DNA of 64,000 nt from Clostridia bacterium (GTDB taxonomy: Bacteria > Bacillota > Clostridia > Christensenellales > UMGS416), in contig JAFGUF010000016.1 of assembly GCA_016938675.1 (NCBI GenBank), positions 2,792 to 66,791 of the forward strand. The letters run 5' to 3'. Below the pieces are notes generated by a model. The model made no database searches and was not told where the DNA came from. It worked only from the letters and a program-made list of their open reading frames with translations. The position numbers were made by a program, and so were the translations under genes. Of the stretch, positions 30,568-40,240 are shown piece after piece (within the stretch, counting starts at the first letter, position 1; each line of letters opens with the position of its first letter).

Positions 30568-31257
30568 ATGGCAAGAGTAAAACGTGGGGTTACTGCCCAC
30601 AAGAGAAAATCAAAAGTTTTAAGAATGGCCAAAGGCTATTACGGTGCCAAGAGCAAGCAATTCAGAAGTGCTAACCAGGCCGTAATTAAATCTATGGCTT
30701 ATGCATATAAAGGACGTAAACAAAAGAAGCGCGACTATAGAAGGCTTTGGATTGTAAGAATTAACGCGGCCGCAAGATTAAACGGCATGTCCTATTCTAC
30801 CTTTATAAACGGCCTTAAGCTGGCAGGCATCGATATCAACCGCAAGATGCTTTCCGAGCTTGCAATTGCTGACATGAGCGCATTCGCTGAGCTGACAAAA
30901 GCAGCAAAAAGCGCAATAGAAAAAGGCGAGAAAGCACCTGCTAAGAAAGCCGAACCTGCACCCAAAGCTGCGCCAGCAAAAGCAGAAGAGCCGAAAACTG
31001 AAACAGCAAAAAAAGCTGAACCGGCAGAGAAAAAACCGGCAGCTACAGCTGCTAAAAAGACCACTGCTGCTAAGCCAGCCGCTTCTACTGCTAAGAAGAC
31101 CACTGCTGCTAAGCCAGCCACTTCAACCGCTAAGAAGACCACCGCTGCTAAGCCAGCCACTTCTACCGCTAAGAAGACCACTGCTGCTAAACCAGCTGCT
31201 TCTACCGCCAAGAAGACCACCACTGCTAAGCCAGCCGCTAAAAAAGAAGAAAAATAA
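30568..31257 (+). CDS. rplT: 50S ribosomal protein L20 with ~110-aa C-terminal Ala/Lys/Thr/Pro-rich repeat extension
   Basis: Canonical L20 for ~118 aa ([26 protein letters not shown]...[14 protein letters not shown]...), then an in-frame low-complexity tail with five [10 protein letters not shown](A/T)ST units. Confidence 0.9.
31051..31245 (+). repeat. Five tandem 39-bp repeats (13-aa units) inside the rplT 3' extension
   Basis: GCTAA(A/G)AAGACCACTGCTGCTAAGCCAGCC(G/A)CTTC(T/A)AC(T/C) repeated head to tail at 31051, 31090, 31129, 31168 and 31207. Confidence 0.85.
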
Positions 31258-32323: not shown

Positions 32324-32398
32324 TCCTCAGTAGCTCAATGGTAGAGCACACGGCTGTTAACCGTGGGGTTACAAGTTCGAGTCTTGTCTGGGGAGCCA
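32324..32398 (+). tRNA. tRNA-Asn (anticodon GTT), CCA encoded
   Basis: TCCTCAGTAGCTCAATGGTAGAGCACACGGCTGTTAACCGTGGGGTTACAAGTTCGAGTCTTGTCTGGGGAGCCA. Anticodon loop CT-GTT-AA, cloverleaf pairs check by hand. Confidence 0.9.
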
Positions 32399-32406
32399 AC
32401 TTAATT

Positions 32407-32440
32407 CATCCGAACTTTTTAAGTTCGGATGTTTCATTTT
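32407..32440 (+). terminator. Terminator of tRNA-Asn
   Basis: CATCCGAAC-TTTTTAA-GTTCGGATG followed by TTTCATTTT. Confidence 0.7.
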
Positions 32441-32524
32441 AAGTTTATGCCACACATAGCTGTGTGTAGCAGTTCTATTTAAAAAAAGGGATGTTTCTTA
32501 AGTTTGTAGTTTGAAAAAACGAAA

Positions 32525-33295
32525 TTAACACAAATTATATAAAAACTTCAAAACTATCGCATTAAATTCGATAGGGTTATCCATATTAAGCAAGTGATGC
32601 GCATTCGAAATAATATTGAACTGTGATTGATTTATTTCTTTATTAAATCGTTTTCCTTGAGAATGTGTTTGTTTGTTTTTGTCACCAACAAGTATAAGTG
32701 TATTTACTTTTAAATCTTTTAACTTGTTCAATGAAGAATAGCCTGTTACAGCATTCATTACCTTTCTTGATTCTTCAATACTATAGGCTGACATAGCCAT
32801 CTTTATATATTCAGAACTTTCAGAACTACCCTTACCATAGCTTTTTGCAGAAAGTTTTATCAATTGCTTTTGAGTAGTCAATTTCATTAAAGAGTTTGTC
32901 ATGTTTGTTAAAACATTATTAACAAAACTATCTCTTGTGCCATACGACGTTTCAGCAAGTATTAGTGCATTAACCAAATCAGGATAATTTAAAGCTATCT
33001 CCTGTGCTATTATACCACCAAATGAATGACCACATAAAACAAATGTATATATGCCATTAGATTTTAATGCATTTACCACACATTTCGCAATTTCAGATAT
33101 GCTGTATTCTTTTAGGATTATATTCTTTGATTCTCCATGACCAGGTAAATCTAATGTTACAACTTTAAATGATTTACTAAAAGCATTTATTTGATGTTTC
33201 CACATGCTAGAATCCACTAATGCACCATGAAGTAAAACTAGTGCTTCACCTTCACCTTTTATATTGAGCCTTATTGTTTTTTCAGTTATTTCCAT
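32525..33295 (-). CDS. Alpha/beta-fold hydrolase
   Basis: LVLLHGAL, DLPGHGES, nucleophile elbow GHSFGG, late H in NAHHL. Confidence 0.75.
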   Translation of the reverse strand: MEITEKTIRLNIKGEGEALVLLHGALVDSSMWKHQINAFSKSFKVVTLDLPGHGESKNIILKEYSISEIAKCVVNALKSNGIYTFVLCGHSFGGIIAQEIALNYPDLVNALILAETSYGTRDSFVNNVLTNMTNSLMKLTTQKQLIKLSAKSYGKGSSESSEYIKMAMSAYSIEESRKVMNAVTGYSSLNKLKDLKVNTLILVGDKNKQTHSQGKRFNKEINQSQFNIISNAHHLLNMDNPIEFNAIVLKFLYNLC

Positions 33296-33331
33296 TTTAA
33301 TTCTCCTCGTATAATATTAGTTGTAATCACT

Positions 33332-33934
33332 TCATTTATAATAATTTGCCCTTAAATTATTAATTAATTGCTTTACGTCTTTTTCTATTTCTGCAAAATC
33401 CAATGGATGTATTCTTAATTTTTTTGCCAAATATCCTTCGAACATATTCACAATAATATCATATAGTGTATTTACATCATCAGGATTTCTAAACTTTGAT
33501 GTATCTATCGCACTGAGGAGTTCCTGTTTATTGGTCAATATTAAACTAGCTTTTTTATCTGCTATTTCAGAAACCACTTCCTCACAATCCTCAAAGTAAA
33601 CATTAATGACAAACTGGTAAATGTATGGATAAACACTAATTAACGCTATACGTGTTTCGATTTCACGTTCAATTATATTAAAGAAATCATTACTTGAAGT
33701 ACGATATTGTGCCTGGATCTTTTTTAAGTCCTCAACCGCTAGATTATATAGATAAAAATATAGCTCCTTTTTATTTCGAAAGTAGTGAAATAAAAGTGAT
33801 TTTGATACATCTCCCTCATCAGCGATATACTGCATCGATGTTTTCCTATATGACTGCTGTGAAAATGCTTTATATCCTGAATTAACAATCTGATTTTGCT
33901 TTTCTTTTGATAGGTTATAGAATTTATTATTCAT
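33332..33934 (-). CDS. TetR/AcrR-family transcriptional regulator
   Basis: HTH region TSMQYIADEGDVSKSLLFHYFRNKKELY. Start set at MNNKFY (a G-rich SD lies 6 nt upstream). Confidence 0.8.
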   Translation of the reverse strand: MNNKFYNLSKEKQNQIVNSGYKAFSQQSYRKTSMQYIADEGDVSKSLLFHYFRNKKELYFYLYNLAVEDLKKIQAQYRTSSNDFFNIIEREIETRIALISVYPYIYQFVINVYFEDCEEVVSEIADKKASLILTNKQELLSAIDTSKFRNPDDVNTLYDIIVNMFEGYLAKKLRIHPLDFAEIEKDVKQLINNLRANYYK

Positions 33935-34040
33935 AATATGCCCCCCCATTAACCGTATCAGTCAACACAGTGATTGTATCATGATTGACCATTTTGGAGA
34001 AGACCTAATATTATTGAATATGAGGTAACAAATGATTAAT

Positions 34041-34150
34041 AAAAGTGCGGATGGTACATACAATGGGGAGCCATAAAGCGATTTACTAATTAGTAAGTCG
34101 CTTTTTTGTTTGTCTAAAAATGTAAAGTTTATGCCACACATACTTATGTC
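34041..34150 (+). repeat. Module copy 1: pseudo tRNA-Asn 3' end (GGGGAGCCA at 34065-34073), terminator hairpin, AAGTTTATGCCACACA
   Basis: AAAAGTGCGGATGGTACATACAAT-GGGGAGCCA-TAAA-GCGATTTACTA-ATT-AGTAAGTCGC-TTTTTTGTTTGTCTAAAAATGTAAAGTTTATGCCACACAT. Confidence 0.8.
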
Positions 34151-34306
34151 TAGATTCTTTATTTGCATTGTATATATACGACAATTTATTTTTTGTAACA
34201 TCTTTTTGACACAGTATAACCTAAATCATAATTTGTCTCAAACCATGCTGTCATCTCAGATGTGATAAAAAGAAAATAAAATATAGATTATAATTATTTG
34301 TTTATC

Positions 34307-34867
34307 CTAATATGGTAAATTTATATTATGATTCCGTTTATTCTTTATAATAATGTCCATATATTGGAATTCCGGCGCAAATAAATGCGCTTTTAAAGAG
34401 GTACAGAGAGAATACTCACGTGGATTTCCATAACTAGTCCAACTACTTTCATAAACTAAATCATTTTCAATAAACTTACTCAAGCATGAGCCATAATTTG
34501 TAGATAGAATACTATCTAGACTATTTTTTGATTCCCAGCATTTAATATCCTCAATTTGCCCTTCTGCCATCCATCTATCACCAAAGGCAACTATTTTTTC
34601 TTCGATAATATATGCGATAAAAAGTTTCTCGATATCGTCAAATTCTCCGGATTTCCACATATCTTCGAAGGTGAAACTGCTTAATTTTCTGTTATTCTCA
34701 ACGATTGAGTGTAATTGTGGCAGGAGCATATCACTAGCATTTACATATTTTCTAAATATGTCTATATCTAGCTCTAACGTTTCTTCTGTATAATTGCCGT
34801 TTCCTAAAGTAGCCAATAAATCGAATGCATTATCAACATTCACATTATATAGTTCCTCACTTTTCAT
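34307..34867 (-). CDS. Hypothetical protein (186 aa as listed); the reading frame stays open upstream to 34975 and is probably the detached C-terminal part of the TIR gene
   Basis: No family recognised. The upstream in-frame extension encodes FDISSDDEAVILYYIIERKIRKVKKGDIISW, whose YYIIERKI motif recurs as AYIIEEKI inside the ORF. Confidence 0.55.
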   Translation of the reverse strand: MKSEELYNVNVDNAFDLLATLGNGNYTEETLELDIDIFRKYVNASDMLLPQLHSIVENNRKLSSFTFEDMWKSGEFDDIEKLFIAYIIEEKIVAFGDRWMAEGQIEDIKCWESKNSLDSILSTNYGSCLSKFIENDLVYESSWTSYGNPREYSLCTSLKAHLFAPEFQYMDIIIKNKRNHNINLPY

Positions 34868-34899
34868 CCAAGAAATTATATCGCCTTTTTTTACTTTCC

Positions 34900-35493
34900 T
34901 TATTTTTCTCTCAATAATGTAATATAATATAACTGCTTCATCATCAGATGAAATATCAAAATATCTTGTGATTTTTCATAGTTATGACTTATTATTCTTT
35001 TTGAAATATAAGTTTCATAGCGGTTTTTTAGTTTTGAAATCTCGGCTGTAACTATACTTGCCTTGCACTGCTTCACCTCAAAAACATTCCTTATCGAATC
35101 ATATATATAAGAAATATCACCATCATTATTTAGTCTACGAATCTTGTATTCACTATTCAAAAACCCATACATGTTTTTTTCGGAAACTTCAGGAAGTGCA
35201 ATAGGAATAACCAAGACTTTATCGCAAAACCACATTATACCCGCTTCATTAAGACAGTATGCGCTTTGATAATACTCTAGAGATAAAATGGCAATGTTAA
35301 TTGAACTGTTTTTAAGCTTGGATTTTACTTCTGTATTTATTCTTTCGTCAACATCATTACCAGGCAAAGATGAACAAAACATATATTCACGCGGGATGCC
35401 CGTTCCAATAAGAAAATCGAAAAGCATATCAGCGATTTCTTTATCCATAGAACGATGACTAATAAATACAACTGATTCTAATTCACATTCCAT
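34900..35493 (-). CDS. TIR-like domain protein (197 aa as listed; C-terminal ~20 aa probably out of frame)
   Basis: VVFISHRSMDKEIADMLFDFL..., SINIAILSLEYYQSAYCLNEAGIMW: a TIR-type beta-alpha pattern with a conserved Glu. Confidence 0.65.
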   Translation of the reverse strand: MECELESVVFISHRSMDKEIADMLFDFLIGTGIPREYMFCSSLPGNDVDERINTEVKSKLKNSSINIAILSLEYYQSAYCLNEAGIMWFCDKVLVIPIALPEVSEKNMYGFLNSEYKIRRLNNDGDISYIYDSIRNVFEVKQCKASIVTAEISKLKNRYETYISKRIISHNYEKSQDILIFHLMMKQLYYITLLREK

Positions 35494-35609
35494 AATAATT
35501 GCTCCTATTTTTTTACATTTATTATAGCATACTATAATGATATATGATATTCAATCCCTTCAATATTACTATATTTTCTTCTTTAAATATATTCTTAAAC
35601 TAATAGTAT

Positions 35610-35690
35610 AAAAACGTTCGGATGGGACATACAGTGGGGAGCCATAAAAGGTCATTCGAATATTTCGAATGACCTTTAGTGTTATTTGTC
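35610..35690 (+). repeat. Module copy 2: pseudo tRNA-Asn 3' end (GGGGAGCCA at 35636-35644) plus a different perfect hairpin
   Basis: AAAAACGTTCGGATGGGACATACAGT-GGGGAGCCA-TAAAA-GGTCATTCGAA-TATT-TCGAATGACC-TTTAGTG. Confidence 0.75.
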
Positions 35691-35874
35691 CCAAACATGT
35701 ACTATACGTATACACTTTACGAAAGACGCTTTTTTATCTTCATCTATCTTTGAACTATGACACACTAAAAAGTTTTGAAAGTAAAGTGTTAACGCTAAAT
35801 TTGCTTGCTCTTTCTGTTATGTATGGCATTTTTATTTGTAAATTAGTTCTTTTACTTTAAAAAACAACTAATAC

Positions 35875-36621
35875 TTAATGAAATTCATCAAACAATTCTA
35901 TCAAATATACTTCATCATTAAAAAGGGCATACACCACAATTATATGGAAATTCTCGTCAGCAGCTAAGCTTAAATACATAATATACTCTCCGTCGCCATA
36001 TTTAATAAATCCACAAAACTCTCCATTCTCGTATAGACTTGTATCAGTTTTATTTATCTGCTCTTTCGTTAAGCCTAGAACAGATAATACTTTTTCTTCA
36101 CTATCGCCAACCCTTATACTCATAGGTCCTATATAGCTTTCATCATATATATCTATATGCCCTACATAACCATCGTCATATATATTGCCGGTATTTGACA
36201 CAAATATCACTATACCAAAATCATAATAGTAATATATATACCATCCGTTATCCCCGTGCATGCCTCCTTCAGTATACCACCTATCTATATAATTAGGTTT
36301 CCCATATAAGCTCTCTATATCCTGAGCTGACATCTTCAACTCTATATCACCTAAAGAAACATTTTCAAAGTCTATCGGGTTATCAATATCAAACTCCTTT
36401 TTCGGCTCCACTTCTTCAACAATAGGCTGTACAGTTGCATAAGGTGTATAAGTTACATGGAGAGTAGGCTCAAGGGTAATTTCAGCCAATTGTACTGCAT
36501 TAGTTGGAGCTATGGTAGCACCTGATTGAATTGAATTTAACTCATTTGCTTTACATCCTGAAAGAGTTAAAAGCAAAAACATATTGATAATTCCAATAAT
36601 AATTATGTGTAATTTTTTCAT
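35875..36621 (-). CDS. Putative lipoprotein, unknown function
   Basis: MKKLHIIIIGIINMFLLLTLSGC lipobox. Start set at the second ATG (GAGG lies 9 nt upstream). Confidence 0.6.
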   Translation of the reverse strand: MKKLHIIIIGIINMFLLLTLSGCKANELNSIQSGATIAPTNAVQLAEITLEPTLHVTYTPYATVQPIVEEVEPKKEFDIDNPIDFENVSLGDIELKMSAQDIESLYGKPNYIDRWYTEGGMHGDNGWYIYYYYDFGIVIFVSNTGNIYDDGYVGHIDIYDESYIGPMSIRVGDSEEKVLSVLGLTKEQINKTDTSLYENGEFCGFIKYGDGEYIMYLSLAADENFHIIVVYALFNDEVYLIELFDEFH

Positions 36622-36702
36622 GTTGCATAACCTCAATATTTACATAATATAGGTTATATATAAAATGTCAAGTTTTTGAAACTACCCGCAATTTCATTGC
36701 AC

Positions 36703-36798
36703 AAAAAGTTCGGATGGGACATACAGTGGGGAGCCACAAAACGATTTACTAATTAGTAAGTCGCTTTTTTGTTTGTCTAAAAATGTAAAGTCTATGCT
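36703..36798 (+). repeat. Module copy 3: near-identical to copy 1 (GGGGAGCCA at 36728-36736)
   Basis: ACAAAAAGTTCGGATGGGACATACAGT-GGGGAGCCA-CAAAA-CGATTTACTAATTAGTAAGTCG-CTTTTTTGTTTGTCTAAAAATGTAAAGTCTATGC. Confidence 0.8.
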
Positions 36799-36930
36799 CT
36801 GCCTTTATTTCAAAGATTTATTGAGACTTTTTCTCAAAGCGGCGCAGATCTTGTACATATTTTCTACTTACCTCTTTACCACTTATTATTATCATGATAT
36901 AATTATTACCATAAAAATCGGAGGTATGAT

Positions 36931-37293
36931 ATGGATTATTCTTATAGTTATGAAGCAAGCCCATTTATGACATTGGTTTGGCTTGCAGTTGCAGTACTTG
37001 GCATCGTTGCAATGTGGAAATTGTTTACTAAGGCTGGTGAACCTGGCTGGGCTGCTATTATTCCCTTGTATAACGCATATGTATTATTTAAGATTACATG
37101 GGGAAACGGTTGGAAATTCCTTTTAATGCTAATCCCAATAGTTAATATAGTTATTGCAATAATGACTATGGTTAAGCTTGCTCAAGCATTCGGAAAAGAC
37201 GGCGGATTTGCAGTAGGACTTATATTCTTAAGTATCATTTTCTATTGCATTCTTGCTTTTGGCGATTCTGAATACGTAGGAGTGCCTACATAA
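36931..37293 (+). CDS. Small multi-pass membrane protein (DUF5684-like)
   Basis: WKLFTKAGEPGWAAIIPLYNAYVLFKITWGNGW matches my recollection of DUF5684. It is the only plus-strand gene in the array. Confidence 0.55.
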   Translation: MDYSYSYEASPFMTLVWLAVAVLGIVAMWKLFTKAGEPGWAAIIPLYNAYVLFKITWGNGWKFLLMLIPIVNIVIAIMTMVKLAQAFGKDGGFAVGLIFLSIIFYCILAFGDSEYVGVPT

Positions 37294-37403
37294 TTTTATT
37301 ACTAAATAAAATGTAAACAAACTTAAGCACCTATGAACAAATCATTCTAGGTGCTTTTATATTTAACCTTTTATTAAGCTAAAATATTTAATTATGTTCA
37401 ATA

Positions 37404-37518
37404 AATAGTGCAGATGGGGCATACACTGAAAACCCGCAAGTGATTTATTAATTAGCAAGTCGCTTTTTTATTTGCTTATAAAATAAAGTTTATGCCACAC
37501 ATTATGTGTGGCATTTTT
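37404..37518 (+). repeat. Module copy 4: decayed pseudo-tRNA end, terminator hairpin, perfect ATGCCACACAT hairpin
   Basis: AAATAGTGCAGATGGGGCATACACTGAAAACCCGCAAGTGATTTATTAATTAGCAAGTCGCTTTTTTATTTGCTTATAAAATAAAGTTT-ATGCCACACAT-T-ATGTGTGGCAT-TTTT. Confidence 0.7.
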
Positions 37519-37531
37519 CATATTACTTTTT

Positions 37532-38458
37532 CTATTCTTTAATCACTACTAATTTAAACTTAATAAACAATATCGGCGCATAATACACAAACCACATTGC
37601 TGCAAAGAAACTAATGACCACCGAGATTAATCCTTCTATCCATATAATGCTTGTAAGCTTGCATGAATACTTTAAAATGAGCGGGTACAGCGCAAATGAA
37701 ACACCGCATGCAACAAGCTTTATAAGCTGCTTCCACCATACAACTTTTACGTCAAATTCGCCATATTTTCTAATCTTTATCATACCAATGGCAAAACCAG
37801 TGAACAATCCCGCCAGCTGAAAGGTCGATGACAAATCATCTATACCATTACCATCACTGTATAAAGCATATGAAACTATAGCCATTAGAACAAAAACTAT
37901 TGGCAGTGCGGCGGCTAAAGTATACTGCATCCATTTTTTTAAATTAAAAAACTTCTCATGAAAGGGCTTTTCCAATTTGATAAATAGAACAACTACTAAA
38001 GTCCCAAGTAAAAATCCAGCAAGCACCTGGCTGGGAAAATGGCTATCCCGATATATCCTTGATATGCCAATGCCTAATATCATAAGTATCGAAATCACCC
38101 ACATAAATCTTTTCTTCAACGTATGGCTAGTGTATGACCAAAAAGCCACCGCACTCAGCGCATGTCCGGATGGCATACCATAGCCGTCGATTACAGTTAT
38201 TCCCTCAGCTATGTGCCTGGGCCTTGGCATATGAAAAACCAATTTCAGTGCTGAAGCCATCAGTCCGCTAAAGGGCACCAGCAAAGTCAGCTTGGAATAT
38301 TTACTAAAGTTTATGCACCATATCAAAACGATTATGACCAAAAAATACGTGTTATCTTTGCCGATTACTGTCAAGGATTTCATCAGTAGACTGAAGCCAT
38401 TGCCTAGAGATTTAATTGCATCATAAATAAAAACGTCTAAATCAAACATCTTTTTCAC
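37532..38458 (-). CDS. PAP2-family membrane phosphatase (BcrC/UppP-like candidate) with extra C-terminal TM helices
   Basis: PAP2 motifs KLVFHMPRP, PSGH and SRIYRDSHFPSQV. Confidence 0.7.
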   Translation of the reverse strand: MKKMFDLDVFIYDAIKSLGNGFSLLMKSLTVIGKDNTYFLVIIVLIWCINFSKYSKLTLLVPFSGLMASALKLVFHMPRPRHIAEGITVIDGYGMPSGHALSAVAFWSYTSHTLKKRFMWVISILMILGIGISRIYRDSHFPSQVLAGFLLGTLVVVLFIKLEKPFHEKFFNLKKWMQYTLAAALPIVFVLMAIVSYALYSDGNGIDDLSSTFQLAGLFTGFAIGMIKIRKYGEFDVKVVWWKQLIKLVACGVSFALYPLILKYSCKLTSIIWIEGLISVVISFFAAMWFVYYAPILFIKFKLVVIKE

Positions 38459-38494
38459 TCCTTAAATTTAATTTTGTTTTCTGGTTGGCTTAAT

Positions 38495-38932
38495 TCATTT
38501 TTTACTATGTATGTTAAACAGTAATACAGCAAGTTCTATGAAAACACCAAATACAATACAAGATACGGCAATATAGGGTGCATAGCTTCCGACAACATTC
38601 CCACCCATAAACATTACTATCATAATGAAAAATACTACATAATTCATCATAGCAAAGCATATCTTTGATTTTATTTTTATTGCGTTGGATTTCGGAGTGG
38701 TTAAGTAAAGATTCTTTGTATCTAGTCTCATATCCTCAATAATATGTACTAGGCCCATTGTGACTATCAATATAAAGGGCAAAAGAAAATTTAGTATAGA
38801 AATCGTTATAACTAACTCTTCATGATCCGGGTCAATCAACAGAAGCAATACGCCGCAAAGCATCATCATACCAACTAATATTAATATAATCCTCTTGCTT
38901 CTCTTTATTTCAAATCTCAATAGGTTAATCAT
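38495..38932 (-). CDS. Small ABC-2-type membrane protein
   Basis: 145 aa, four hydrophobic helices, overlaps the ATPase gene by 8 nt. Confidence 0.5.
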   Translation of the reverse strand: MINLLRFEIKRSKRIILILVGMMMLCGVLLLLIDPDHEELVITISILNFLLPFILIVTMGLVHIIEDMRLDTKNLYLTTPKSNAIKIKSKICFAMMNYVVFFIMIVMFMGGNVVGSYAPYIAVSCIVFGVFIELAVLLFNIHSKK

Positions 38933-39617
38933 TTTTCATAACCTCCAAATATATGCTCTTTATGGAACTGCCGTTTTCAGACCGCAAGGTATCACAGTCC
39001 TCAAAAAGCATGACTTTACCGTTCTTTATAAATAATACCTTGTCAAAGAGCCTCTCCACCTCATCTATAAGATGGGTCGCAAGAATAATGGTCACATCCT
39101 CCGAGATACAGTCAAAAATTGTATTCATCACTTGCTCTCTTGAGAGTGTATCTATACCACCTAGCGGTTCATCCAGCAGAAATACTCTAGCCCTTCTTGA
39201 TAATACCAGTCCCAGTCGCAGTTTCTGCAGCACTCCTTTAGAAAGATCAATTATGCTTTCATTGTCTTTAAGTCCAAACTTTTCTTTCATTAATATAAAC
39301 TTCTCTTTATCAAAATCATAAAATAAATTATCATAAAACTTTTCAATATCTTTTACCTTCATCCATCTGTAAAGATTATTATTCTCCGGAAAATAAGATA
39401 CTATAGATTTTGTATATTCTCCGATTTGTCTTTTATCAATATATATATTTCCGTCATCCTGCTTCAGCGAACCTGCCAATATATTCATCAGCGTACTTTT
39501 CCCGCTCCCGTTCGGTCCTAAAAGACCCAACACTCTCCCCTGCTCTATCTCAAAGCTAAAGTCACAAAGTGCCGTTTTTTGATTATATTTTTTATTCAGG
39601 TTTTTTACATTAATCAT
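38925..39617 (-). CDS. ABC transporter ATP-binding protein
   Basis: Walker A GPNGSGKST, signature-like LSKGVLQK, Walker B VFLLDEP. Confidence 0.85.
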   Translation of the reverse strand: MINVKNLNKKYNQKTALCDFSFEIEQGRVLGLLGPNGSGKSTLMNILAGSLKQDDGNIYIDKRQIGEYTKSIVSYFPENNNLYRWMKVKDIEKFYDNLFYDFDKEKFILMKEKFGLKDNESIIDLSKGVLQKLRLGLVLSRRARVFLLDEPLGGIDTLSREQVMNTIFDCISEDVTIILATHLIDEVERLFDKVLFIKNGKVMLFEDCDTLRSENGSSIKSIYLEVMKND

Positions 39618-39987
39618 TTATTTCACCTTTATTTAGATATTGTTCTATTGCTTTCTTTATATCAAAATCACTCAAACCCATTTTACTCATCTTGTCTGTA
39701 AAATCGGATATCTCTTTGCTTACAAATTCATCAAGCAGCTTTTTTATCTTTACTTTGTCATCCGTCACAAACGAACCCATTCCCCGTCTGGTATGGCATA
39801 ATCCTTTTTGCTCTATTTCTCTATATGCCCGTTGTATAGTGTTCGGATTTACCTGAAATTGGTTGGCCAAATCCCTCACAGAAGGCAATTTATCGCCTGG
39901 CGAGAGCCTTGAGGATATTATCTCGTTCTCAAGCCACTTTACCACCTGAATATAGATAGGAATGTTATTGTCAAAATCGCAATTCAA
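39610..39987 (-). CDS. GntR-family (YtrA-subfamily size) transcriptional regulator
   Basis: IPIYIQVVKWLENEIISSRLSPGDKLPSVRDLANQFQVNPNTIQRAYREIEQKG, 125 aa. Confidence 0.85.
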   Translation of the reverse strand: MNCDFDNNIPIYIQVVKWLENEIISSRLSPGDKLPSVRDLANQFQVNPNTIQRAYREIEQKGLCHTRRGMGSFVTDDKVKIKKLLDEFVSKEISDFTDKMSKMGLSDFDIKKAIEQYLNKGEIND

Positions 39988-40015
39988 AATATACCGTCCT
40001 AATTTAGCTCTGTAT

Positions 40016-40059
40016 TACTGTATTAAGATTATAATACAGTAGTGGTGTCGTTTTGTCAA
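40016..40059 (-). promoter_or_regulatory. Promoter with overlapping perfect 10-bp inverted repeat (candidate GntR operator) for the GntR-ABC-PAP2 cassette
   Basis: Minus strand has TTGACA (40059-40054), 17 nt, TATTAT(AAT). Inverted repeat TACTGTATTA (40016-40025) / TAATACAGTA (40032-41) brackets the -10. CTGTATTA is also tandemly duplicated. Confidence 0.55.
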
Positions 40060-40126
40060 TACTGCTTAGTTTATATGTGCTTAATATATCGTCTATATAA
40101 ACTACAAAAGATATATAAAGAAAATA

Positions 40127-40240
40127 CTCCGGATTCGACATACTATTGGGGGCAATCATTATTCACTAGAACTTTTTATTTAATAATTATTAGTGGATGG
40201 ATTATAAAAATCTTATGCCACACATTACGTGTGGCATTTT
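40127..40240 (+). repeat. Module copy 5 (most diverged): T-loop-like GGATTCGA, GGGGGCAATCA, AT-rich spacer, ATGCCACAC hairpin
   Basis: CTCCGGATTCGACATACTATTGGGGGCAATCA...CTT-ATGCCACAC-ATTAC-GTGTGGCAT-TTTC. Confidence 0.55.

What the first reader, a model, noticed from the sequence alone, without database searches (positions are those of the whole stretch)
34307..35493. TIR-like gene with an uncharacterised partner or C-terminal region in its own cassette: candidate novel defence gene
ORF 34900-35493 has a TIR-type N-terminal domain: VVFISHRSMDKEIADMLFDFL, then INIAILSLEYYQSAYCLNEAGIMW. The Glu sits in the C/W-x-x-E context where TIR NADases carry their catalytic glutamate. It is followed after 32 nt by a 186-aa ORF that I cannot assign to any family. 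That ORF contains an internal duplication (see the next finding) and has a C-terminal part rich in W, Y and C. The pair sits alone between two att-like modules in an accessory array next to a tRNA gene, the typical context of anti-phage genes. None of the known TIR-system partners is nearby: no SIR2/SLOG ThsA-like gene, STING, cyclase, Argonaute, NACHT/STAND ATPase or helicase. It therefore does not fit the Thoeris, CBASS, Pycsar or SPARTA architectures as far as I can see.
Basis: partly seen in the sequence, partly recalled or inferred. Interest (0 to 1): 0.7.

Follow-up and report, generated by a model that had tools for sequence, protein, structure and literature searches.

The report
Frameshifted TIR anti-phage gene cassette
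The two reading frames are the two halves of one gene, broken here by a single missing base. It encodes an uncharacterised type of candidate anti-phage protein: an NAD-destroying TIR domain like that of Bacillus SpbK, joined to a new double winged-helix domain that probably senses infection.

Summary
The sequence features are real, but the "TIR gene plus partner" is one gene. A 99%-identical metagenome copy and hundreds of homologues encode a single 395-aa protein (most homologues are 489 aa). The window lacks one T of a T5 run (34959-34962), which splits the gene into ORFs of 197 and 186 aa.

- **N-terminal half:** a TIR domain whose closest relative by sequence and predicted fold is SpbK, the B. 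subtilis abortive-infection NADase. The SpbK residues N191, E192, G194 and W197 correspond to N82, E83, G85 and W88 here.
- **C-terminal half (217 aa):** predicted with high confidence as two acidic winged-helix units. It has no Pfam, PHROGs, PDB or BFVD match.
- **Effector swapping:** in rare relatives the same module follows a DUF4062 NADase-like domain, an HNH nuclease or a different TIR. This is the pattern expected of a sensor joined to interchangeable effectors.
- **Context of homologues:** they lie beside restriction-modification genes and have no conserved partner.
- **Context in the window:** the gene is a discrete 1.6-kb cassette bounded by repeats that resemble a tRNA 3' end, downstream of tRNA-Asn.

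Verdict: a probably inactive copy of an untested single-protein TIR defence family. It is a new variant of the SpbK / Swarozyc kind and of moderate interest.

The parts
34307..35493 (-). One disrupted gene: the frame-restored product is 395 aa (SpbK-like TIR plus tandem winged-helix module)
   Evidence: the restored protein is 99% identical to the intact P0001, and 798 homologues reach E<=1e-3; only 5 substitutions and 1 indel in the CDS compared with L001.
34999..35469 (-). TIR domain (about residues 9-165), SpbK-type
   Evidence: Pfam TIR_2 32.2 bits, above the cutoff of 28. PADLOC spbK E=7.2e-23. PDB SpbK 9phb E=7.8e-17. AF2 model plus Foldseek: top hit 9phb_A, TM 0.74.
35245..35247 (-). 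Codon of E83, the putative catalytic glutamate in YCLNEAGIMW
   Evidence: Aligned to SpbK E192. N82, G85 and W88 align with SpbK N191, G194 and W197, which the SpbK study mutated (PMC12847820). C80, E83, G85 and W88 are invariant in 120 homologues.
34959..34962 (-). Frameshift site: a T4 run where the intact allele has T5 (GATATTTT[T]GAT)
   Evidence: Pairwise alignment of the window against L001. The same T4 allele occurs in a Logan assembly of SRR13394436.
34900..34958 (-). Out-of-frame tail of ORF1 (19 aberrant residues plus the stop codon)
   Evidence: Three-frame translation.
34310..34960 (-). Reading frame of the C-terminal module (217 aa). Only residues from Met210 onward are listed as 'ORF2'.
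   Evidence: AF2 model pLDDT 92.8, pTM 0.83.
34772..34945 (-). Winged-helix unit 1 (module residues 6-63, H-E-H-H-E-E)
   Evidence: DSSP on the AF2 model. Foldseek hits are all MarR, PadR, SarA or histone H1 type, and none is significant.
34406..34636 (-). Winged-helix unit 2 (module residues 109-185), with the conserved W/Y-rich wing SSWTSYGNPREY
   Evidence: Homologous to the C-terminal auxiliary domain of roughly 310-aa DUF4062 proteins of Bacilli (hhalign E=2.5e-26).
35494..35618 (-). Cassette-borne 5' region: candidate extended -10 (TGcTATAAT, 35521-35529) and RBS (AGGAG, 35502-35506)
   Evidence: Read directly from the sequence. The consensus promoter scan did not list this -10, so it is an inference.
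35619..35648 (+). Upstream cassette boundary: repeat core resembling a tRNA 3' end, ending TGGGGAGCCA
   Evidence: The 99% match to L001 ends exactly here.
34041..34134 (+). Downstream cassette boundary: repeat core (34041-34072) plus terminator-like hairpin (34075-34104) plus the AAAGTTTATGC element
32324..32398 (+). tRNA-Asn(GTT). Its last 10 nt, TGGGGAGCCA, equal the end of each repeat core.

Best explanation
Window 34307-35493 (minus strand) is a single gene of a widespread but uncharacterised family, probably a single-protein abortive-infection system. The N-terminal 170 residues are a SpbK-type TIR NADase, the effector. The C-terminal 217 residues are two acidic winged-helix units joined by three helices, and they act as the trigger-binding and assembly module. 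Most relatives also carry a hypervariable N-terminal extension of about 95 aa, which this copy lacks.

Proposed mechanism for intact relatives, inferred by analogy with SpbK and with the DUF4062 system Swarozyc: a phage component made during infection binds the winged-helix module. That component is more likely a multimeric protein than nucleic acid. Binding brings TIR domains together into head-to-tail assemblies that form composite active sites around E83. NAD+ is then hydrolysed and the infected cell stops supporting the phage.

In this window, loss of one T from a T5 run uncouples the TIR from its sensor. What remains is a TIR-only fragment of 178 native residues plus 19 aberrant ones, followed by an untranslatable remainder with no RBS. 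The locus is therefore most likely a recently inactivated pseudogene. The gene travels as a 1.6-kb cassette bounded by repeats resembling a tRNA 3' end.

Shown here: it is one gene; the frameshift; TIR homology and motif conservation; the predicted fold of the module; effector swapping; the defence-island context of homologues; the cassette boundaries. Inferred: NADase activity, the nature of the trigger, and the abortive-infection outcome.
For: One gene: the intact 395-aa P0001 is 99% identical, and the 120 best of 798 homologues are each a single ORF spanning the TIR and the C-terminal module. T4 against T5 is the only indel within the gene. No Shine-Dalgarno sequence precedes the ORF2 ATG, whereas AGGAG precedes ORF1.

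TIR and SpbK. Residues aligned with SpbK N191/E192/G194/W197 are invariant or nearly invariant. The published SpbK mechanism is in PMC12847820.

Sensor module: the confident AF2 model shows two winged-helix topologies. The module is as conserved as the TIR (pairwise identity 0.61 and 0.65 against 0.67), while the N-extension is variable (0.38). It is found behind alternative effectors: DUF4062 (P0156, P0237, P0238), HNH (P0179, P0211) and a canonical TIR_2/SEFIR domain (P0140). Unit 2 is homologous to the auxiliary domain of a Bacilli lineage of DUF4062 proteins (E=2.5e-26), whose relatives at about 39% identity are carried on 156 Enterococcus plasmid records. A net charge of -11.7 +/- 2.7 argues for a protein ligand and against nucleic acid. 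Precedent: the Swarozyc auxiliary domain has an HTH/winged fold and binds the phage portal (10.64898/2026.05.01.722283).

Defence context: homologues lie next to type I, LlaJI and DpnII restriction-modification systems, GmrSD, Schlafen-type helicases, PemK and integrases. Among 118 immediate neighbours at 31 loci the counts were ResIII 9, DNA_methylase 6, N6_N4_Mtase 5 and Eco57I 4, with no conserved partner. Among 83 ORFs lying 6.5 kb or more away, these families are nearly absent. Independent inactivations occur elsewhere (L013 has two stop codons, L045 a frameshift), as expected for a costly defence gene.
Against: No member of the family has been tested, so NADase activity and phage protection are inferred. 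The window itself is not a classical defence island: the neighbouring cassettes encode a TetR regulator with a hydrolase, and a lipoprotein-like protein. The C-terminal module has no significant structural neighbour (best Foldseek E=0.055), so the 'sensor' role rests on effector swapping and analogy. The module is highly conserved, whereas sensors under an arms race are often variable; the hypervariable N-extension could be the true specificity determinant and the module a scaffold or regulator. No detectable homology links the module to the auxiliary domain of roughly 280-aa enterobacterial DUF4062 proteins, which I took as possibly Swarozyc-like without being able to confirm it (hhalign E=0.09). 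I cannot exclude that the window and the Logan contig come from the same sample, so the evidence that the frameshift is biological is good but not independent beyond doubt.
Confidence: 0.62

Rival explanations
1. A two-gene operon, as in the first reader's primary wording: a small TIR protein plus a separate 186-aa partner that work together.
For: Two ORFs 32 nt apart on the same strand. The same split allele occurs in a second assembly.
Against: The ORF2 frame is open about 110 nt upstream of its ATG, and that stretch encodes the conserved first helix of winged-helix unit 1. The intact allele differs by one T. All 120 best homologues are fused. No RBS precedes ORF2. The other disrupted copies are broken at different positions.
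Confidence: 0.03
2. A Thoeris-like signal generator: the TIR makes a cyclic ADPR-type messenger for an effector encoded elsewhere, and the winged-helix module senses the phage.
For: SpbK itself produces N1-cADPR, and its authors discuss a possible receptor located elsewhere (PMC12847820). P0058 has a weak ThsB_TIR hit (E=0.069).
Against: No SIR2, SLOG, Macro or caspase-like gene was seen beside the five homologues whose contigs were examined, and none ranks among the 25 commonest Pfam families of the 118 immediate neighbours at 31 further loci. The same module is fused to an HNH nuclease and to DUF4062 NADase-like domains, which places the N-terminal position in the role of a terminal effector.
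Confidence: 0.12
3. The winged-helix module binds nucleic acid (phage DNA or RNA, or its own operator), so the protein is a nucleic-acid-activated NADase or a TIR-linked transcription factor.
For: All structural neighbours, though none is significant, are DNA-binding winged-helix proteins: MarR, PadR, SarA/SarS, histone H1. For Evangelion Eva01, mutagenesis of basic patches and replication-linked triggering have been described (10.64898/2026.06.25.731849).
Against: The module is strongly acidic across 120 homologues: net -11.7, pI 4.8, and each unit is about -6.
Confidence: 0.15
4. Not defence at all: a TIR protein acting on a eukaryotic host (like BtpA/TcpB or TirS), or a housekeeping NAD-metabolism protein of gut Clostridia.
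For: The family is concentrated in gut-associated Clostridia and Treponema. BtpA is the second-best structural hit.
Against: No signal peptide is evident by inspection of the N-terminus (MECELESVVFISH...); no secretion predictor was run. Homologues are tightly linked to restriction-modification and other defence genes. Distribution is patchy and crosses phyla. The closest relative is a proven anti-phage protein.
Confidence: 0.05

Closest known systems
SpbK (ICEBs1 of Bacillus subtilis; abortive-infection TIR NADase activated by the SPbeta portal YonE)
   Same: The TIR domains are homologous (PADLOC spbK E=7e-23; PDB 9phb E=8e-17; Foldseek TM 0.74 at 26% identity). They share the FISH(R/S)S and YYxSxYCLNExGxxW motifs, including SpbK N191, E192, G194 and W197. 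Both are single-gene systems carried on mobile DNA.
   Different: SpbK is 266 aa, with a 4-helix-bundle sensor at the N-terminus followed by the TIR. Here the TIR comes first and is followed by a 217-aa tandem winged-helix module that SpbK lacks. The window copy has no N-terminal domain at all. The spbK profile is matched over only about 40% of its length.
Swarozyc / Evangelion / NIR-type DUF4062 systems (TIR-like NADase core plus C-terminal auxiliary sensor)
   Same: The layout is the same: an N-terminal NADase-type core, a helical linker, and a C-terminal auxiliary domain with an HTH/winged fold. In KpSwz that domain binds the phage portal. Winged-helix unit 2 here is homologous (E=2.5e-26) to the auxiliary domain of a Bacilli DUF4062 lineage whose relatives at about 39% identity are common on Enterococcus plasmids.
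   Different: The catalytic core is a canonical TIR_2/SpbK-type domain, not DUF4062. There are two winged-helix units, not one. No homology to the auxiliary domain of roughly 280-aa enterobacterial DUF4062 proteins was detectable (E=0.09); the KpSwz and Eva01 sequences themselves were not available. The enterococcal lineage has, as far as I could find, not been tested.
Thoeris ThsB
   Same: A bacterial TIR protein with a conserved Glu, found in defence islands.
   Different: There is no ThsA-type partner. The ThsB_TIR profile is not met (E=0.069, below its cutoff). A large C-terminal module is present.
Integron gene cassettes, and tRNA-targeting island arrays such as tycheposons (context only; the tycheposon comparison is from memory, not tested)
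   Same: A single promoter-bearing gene is bounded by short conserved sites. The identical cassette is found in a different array (L001). The array abuts a tRNA gene.
   Different: The sites are not attC-like hairpins. They are imitations of a tRNA 3' end followed by a terminator hairpin. No integrase was recognised among the genes of about 30.5-43.8 kb that were scanned against Pfam; the rest of the window was not annotated.

Membership tests
TIR domain superfamily (Pfam TIR_2 / TIR) | Sequence match above the curated threshold | tested here: met
   TIR_2 32.2 bits against 28; TIR 22.4 against 21.3.
TIR domain superfamily (Pfam TIR_2 / TIR) | Flavodoxin-like fold with five beta-alpha units | tested here: met
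   AF2 model. The top Foldseek hits are TIR structures: 9phb_A TM 0.74, BtpA 0.65. Local pLDDT around the active-site loop is low (residues 81-84 below 50).
TIR NADases | Conserved catalytic glutamate in the alphaC region | tested here: met
   E83 aligns with SpbK E192 and is invariant in 120 homologues.
TIR NADases | NAD+ hydrolase or cyclase activity | not testable with these tools
   Needs an enzyme assay.
SpbK family | SpbK-type TIR domain, best reciprocal relative | tested here: met
   PADLOC spbK is the only strong hit. SpbK is the best PDB hit by both sequence and fold.
SpbK family | [quoted passage not shown] | tested here: not met
   The window protein starts 8 residues before the TIR, and only 125 nt of non-coding DNA lie upstream. 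The TIR is followed by a 217-aa module absent from SpbK. The profile match covers positions 148-271 of 308.
SpbK family | Activation by a phage portal protein; abortive infection | not testable with these tools
   Needs phage challenge and escape mutants.
Thoeris | A ThsB-type TIR together with a ThsA effector (SIR2/SLOG, Macro-TM or similar) in the same locus | tested here: not met
   ThsB_TIR scores E=0.069, below its cutoff. No such neighbour occurs in the window or beside the five homologues examined by contig, and no such family is among the 25 commonest in the neighbour census of 31 further loci.
Swarozyc / Evangelion (DUF4062 systems) | DUF4062 (NIR) catalytic core | tested here: not met
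   No PF13271 hit in P0001 or in the 489-aa homologues. Only rare relatives of the C-module carry DUF4062.
Swarozyc / Evangelion (DUF4062 systems) | C-terminal auxiliary domain with an HTH/winged fold, required for sensing | tested here: inconclusive
   The fold class matches. Homology to the auxiliary domain of one Bacilli DUF4062 lineage is clear (E=2.5e-26), but homology to roughly 280-aa enterobacterial DUF4062 proteins is not (E=0.09).
Class 1-type integron cassette | attC site (imperfect inverted repeat with R''/L''-L'/R' and GTTRRRY) and a nearby intI | tested here: not met
   The repeat core is GTKCGGATGGKACATACARTGGGGAGCCA and is not a palindrome. The hairpins are terminator-like. No integrase was found among the annotated neighbours.

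The most novel reading that the evidence does not exclude
The intact form of this gene founds a new single-protein anti-phage system of gut Clostridia and spirochaetes. Its acidic tandem winged-helix module would be a previously undescribed, portable sensor that recognises a conserved phage protein and can drive three different effectors: SpbK-type TIR, DUF4062/NIR and HNH. In addition, the gene would be moved as a promoter-bearing mini-cassette by a recombination system that uses imitations of a tRNA-Asn 3' end plus terminator as its sites. That would be an integron-like cassette array of a kind not yet described in Firmicutes.
Probability: 0.4. Interest if true: 0.65.

Novelty: new variant of a known kind. 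Interest (0 to 1): 0.42.

Why it matters
TIR NADases are a central theme of immunity from bacteria to plants and animals, and what remains poorly known is how each one senses infection. This family couples an SpbK-type TIR to a conserved sensor-like module that exists in no domain database. The same module is also attached to DUF4062 and HNH effectors, including a lineage common on Enterococcus plasmids. Finding its trigger would add a new sensor class, and it would explain a gene found on many clinically relevant plasmids. For this locus the practical message is the opposite: the copy is broken, so it should be annotated as a pseudogene and not as two hypothetical proteins.

Tried and rejected
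1. Internal duplication at the sequence level. hhalign of the two halves of the module gave E=0.1, which is not significant. Only the fold repeats.

2. Structural neighbours of the C-module. Foldseek against the PDB and BFVD gave nothing below E=0.05. Pfam, NCBIfam and PHROGs gave nothing.

3. Homology of the module to an enterobacterial DUF4062 auxiliary domain. This was not detectable (E=0.09). The KpSwz sequence itself was not obtainable: it is absent from the PDB copy, and the supplement gives only accession numbers.

4. Programmed frameshift or phase variation. Rejected: there is no X XXY YYZ heptamer at the site, the run is only 4-5 T, and the other disrupted homologues are broken elsewhere.

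5. Looking for the repeat core elsewhere. There were 0 matches in viral contigs and in two metagenome scans, and no Rfam family matches the repeats.

6. Identifying the source organism through exact-protein look-ups. The SpoU methylase is not on record. The TetR and TIR ORFs appear only in short contigs of SRR13394436.

7. A conserved partner gene. None was found.
Full report
**1. What is in the sequence**

On the minus strand there are two ORFs: 34900-35493 (197 aa) and 34307-34867 (186 aa), separated by 32 nt. ORF1 has a good ribosome-binding site (AGGAG, 35502-35506). ORF2 has none.

A three-frame translation shows that the ORF2 frame is open for a further 110 nt or so upstream of its ATG. 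There it reads FDISSDDEAVILYYIIERKIRKVKKGDIISW, which overlaps the last 19 codons of ORF1. Joining the frames at GATATTTTGAT gives a 395-aa protein.

**2. One gene, broken by one base**

- A search of 5.8 billion proteins with the joined sequence found 798 relatives at E<=1e-3. The best, P0001, is an intact 395-aa protein, 99% identical, and it reads ...SQDIFDISSDDEAV... across the junction.
- All 120 best hits are single proteins that span both the TIR and the C-terminal module.
- The contig carrying P0001 (L001) matches window 35648-34041 at 99%.
- Within the coding region the two DNAs differ by five substitutions and one indel: T5 in L001 against T4 in the window at 34959-34962.
- The split allele is also present, 100% identical over 2673 bp, in a Logan assembly of run SRR13394436. 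It is therefore not a private assembly artefact of the window, although the sample could be the same.
- Two other homologues in reference genomes are also disrupted, at other positions: L013 (Lacrimispora) has two in-frame stops, and L045 (a Treponema MAG) has a frameshift near residue 58. The breaks are thus sporadic decay, not a programmed event.

**3. The N-terminal half**

- ORF1 passes the Pfam thresholds for TIR_2 and TIR.
- In PADLOC the only strong hit is spbK (E=7.2e-23), over the TIR part of that profile.
- A family profile searched against all PDB sequences finds SpbK (9phb) first, at E=7.8e-17.
- The alignment pairs FISHRS with FISHSS, and YYQSAYCLNEAGILW with YYDSVYCLNEMGATW.
- In SpbK, E192 is modelled among the NAD+-contacting residues and was mutated to E192A. 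N191, G194 and W197 were also targeted by mutagenesis. [quoted passage not shown]
- The equivalents here are N82, E83, G85 and W88, which are invariant or nearly invariant in 120 homologues.
- An AlphaFold2 model (mean pLDDT 84.5) has SpbK's TIR as its best structural match (TM 0.74 on the target, 26% identity), followed by BtpA and plant, SARM1 and SPARTA TIRs.

The closest known relative is SpbK specifically.

**4. The C-terminal half**

- Modelled on its own with 120 homologues, the 217-aa region gives pLDDT 92.8 and pTM 0.83. It folds as two H-E-H-H-E-E winged-helix units (module residues 6-63 and 109-185), joined by three helices and followed by two more.
- Foldseek finds only weak, non-significant similarity to MarR, PadR, SarA/SarS, histone H1 and NLR winged-helix domains (best E=0.055). 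Nothing is significant among viral models.
- Pfam, NCBIfam and PHROGs give nothing.
- The "internal duplication" is therefore a duplication of fold. At the sequence-profile level it is not significant.
- The module is strongly acidic in all homologues: net charge -11.7 +/- 2.7, pI 4.8, and each unit about -6. This speaks against a generic nucleic-acid-binding role.

**5. Is the module a sensor?**

An exhaustive phmmer search of 1.84 billion representatives with the module found 219 proteins at E<=1e-3. Nearly all carry the same SpbK-type TIR. The exceptions are informative:

| Proteins | Domain in front of the module |
|---|---|
| P0156, P0237, P0238 | DUF4062 |
| P0179, P0211 | HNH nuclease |
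| P0140 | canonical TIR_2/SEFIR domain |

DUF4062 has recently been shown to be a TIR-like NADase used in the Swarozyc, Evangelion, Vulcan/Vesta and Avs systems (10.64898/2026.05.01.722283; 10.64898/2026.06.25.731849; 10.64898/2026.09.04.749371).

Winged-helix unit 2 is clearly homologous (hhalign probability 99.7%, E=2.5e-26) to the C-terminal auxiliary domain of a family of roughly 310-aa DUF4062 proteins of Bacilli. Full-length relatives of that family, at about 39% identity, are found on 156 Enterococcus plasmid records. A single enterococcal/Vagococcus member aligns with the same region at E=0.002.

Interchangeable effectors in front of one conserved module are the usual signature of a sensor or regulatory module. 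In KpSwz the auxiliary domain has an HTH/winged fold and wraps the phage portal, anchored by a W-Y hairpin. The most conserved feature of unit 2 here is its wing, SSWTSYGNPREY. I could not show homology to roughly 280-aa enterobacterial DUF4062 auxiliary domains (E=0.09), so that parallel is an analogy only.

One caveat. The module is as conserved as the TIR (mean pairwise identity 0.61 and 0.65 against 0.67). The roughly 95-aa N-terminal extension, present in about three quarters of the relatives and absent here, is hypervariable (0.38). The extension may set phage specificity, as the SpbK N-terminal domain does, with the module acting as a common platform.

**6. Context of homologues**

- P0013 follows a type I restriction-modification operon inserted between ftsZ and spoIIGA.
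- P0095 lies between an LlaJI-type restriction-modification system and a STAND/helicase gene.
- P0102 follows DpnII restriction-modification, an EcoRI-type methylase and GmrSD, and precedes an integrase and PemK.
- P0088 precedes a Schlafen-type helicase, MazG, HNH and a PLD-helicase.
- P0037 lies in an island of hypothetical genes that includes a P4 cII-like gene.

A scan of one genome per species found 57 loci. Most are in gut Clostridia (Oscillospiraceae, Lachnospiraceae), and some are in Treponema and Sphaerochaeta.

I then compared families among immediate neighbours with a control set from the same loci:

| Set | ORFs | Commonest Pfam families |
|---|---|---|
| Two neighbours each side, 31 loci | 118 | ResIII 9, DNA_methylase 6, N6_N4_Mtase 5, SWI2_SNF2 4, Eco57I 4, HSDR_N 3, Schlafen 2 |
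| ORFs 6.5 kb or more away | 83 | HTH_26 3, integrase 2, resolvase 2, metabolic genes; N6_Mtase 1; no ResIII or cytosine methylase among the top families |

No family recurs often enough among the neighbours to be a partner. The family is therefore tightly linked to restriction-modification and other defence genes and works alone.

**7. Context in the window**

- Three direct copies of a roughly 30-nt core (AAAGTKCGGATGGKACATACARTGGGGAGCCA on the + strand) lie at 34041-34072, 35619-35648 and 36703-36735. None is expected by chance.
- The last 10 nt of each core equal the 3' end of tRNA-Asn(GTT) at 32324-32398.
- Each core is followed by a terminator-like hairpin on the + strand, as the tRNA itself is.
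- The match to L001 runs exactly from core to core, and L001 has different cassettes on either side (Barstar plus DUF7660 upstream). The TIR gene is thus a discrete, exchangeable 1.6-kb cassette with its own 5' region.
- Neighbouring cassettes encode TetR plus an alpha/beta hydrolase, and a lipoprotein-like protein. No integrase was found among the genes annotated nearby.
- Parts of the module (the hairpin and an ATGCCACACAT...GTGTGGCAT palindrome) recur as far as about 40240.
- The core was not found in the viral or JGI metagenome collections.

**8. Mechanism and comparison**

The best-supported reading is a single-protein, SpbK-like abortive-infection NADase. Its trigger-binding part is a new tandem winged-helix module, and the layout matches the DUF4062-plus-auxiliary-domain systems. 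It is not a member of the SpbK family in the strict sense, because the sensor domain and the domain order differ. It is not Thoeris, because there is no ThsA. It is not a DUF4062 system, because the catalytic core differs.

In this window the gene is most likely dead. The TIR fragment has lost the module that would cluster it, and the remainder lacks a translation start signal.

**9. Verdict**

The interpretation as a candidate defence gene outside the established multi-gene architectures is supported for the family and weakened for this copy. Novelty: a new variant of a known kind. Interest is moderate (0.42). The most interesting residues of the finding are the portable winged-helix module and the tRNA-end-mimicking cassette array.

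Noticed in passing
window 32324-40240 (cores at 34041-34072, 35619-35648, 36703-36735; hairpins 34075-34104, 35647-35677, 36742-36763; related elements at 32432-32480, 37438-37517, 40146-40240): An array of small cassettes lies downstream of tRNA-Asn. Each cassette is bounded by a module that imitates a tRNA 3' end (ending TGGGGAGCCA) plus a terminator hairpin, often followed by an ATGCCACACAT..GTGTGGCAT palindrome. The TIR cassette recurs at 99% identity, core to core, in a different array (L001). No integrase was found nearby, and the core is absent from the viral and JGI metagenome collections. This may be an undescribed cassette-exchange system.
   Followed up: partly
L001 316-1005: The cassette next to the intact TIR gene in the metagenome contig encodes a Barstar-like protein and a DUF7660 protein. 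These are immunity-type small proteins, which suggests that such arrays collect conflict-related genes.
   Followed up: partly
L013 9686-11179 (Lacrimispora sp. AGF001) and L045 10001-11166 (Treponema MAG): These are independent inactivations of the same gene family: two TTA-to-TAA nonsense codons in L013 (its near-identical relative L012 is intact), and a frameshift near residue 58 in L045.
   Followed up: yes
P0237 family; plasmid hits H1-H15 (for example NZ_CP138643.1 89231-90229): A roughly 310-335-aa protein with DUF4062 followed by one winged-helix unit is present on 156 Enterococcus plasmid records, many of them conjugative. Its auxiliary domain is homologous to unit 2 of the module studied here. 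The records annotate it only as 'DUF4062 domain-containing protein'.
   Followed up: partly
P0211 (511 aa) and P0179 (334 aa): In these proteins the winged-helix module is fused to an HNH nuclease. In P0211 it is followed by a PRiA4_ORF3 domain. These look like further, untested effector variants.
   Followed up: no
homologues P0003, P0058, P0075 and others (N-terminal 90-165 residues): Most family members carry a hypervariable N-terminal extension of at least two unrelated types. One of them has a winged-helix-like sequence pattern. The window copy and about 15% of relatives lack the extension.
   Followed up: partly
window 30568-31257, repeats at 31033-31239: The ribosomal protein L20 gene carries a C-terminal extension of about 110 aa built from 39-nt tandem repeats that encode Lys/Ala/Thr-rich units ([10 protein letters not shown]...). 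This is an unusual histone-H1-like tail on L20.
   Followed up: no
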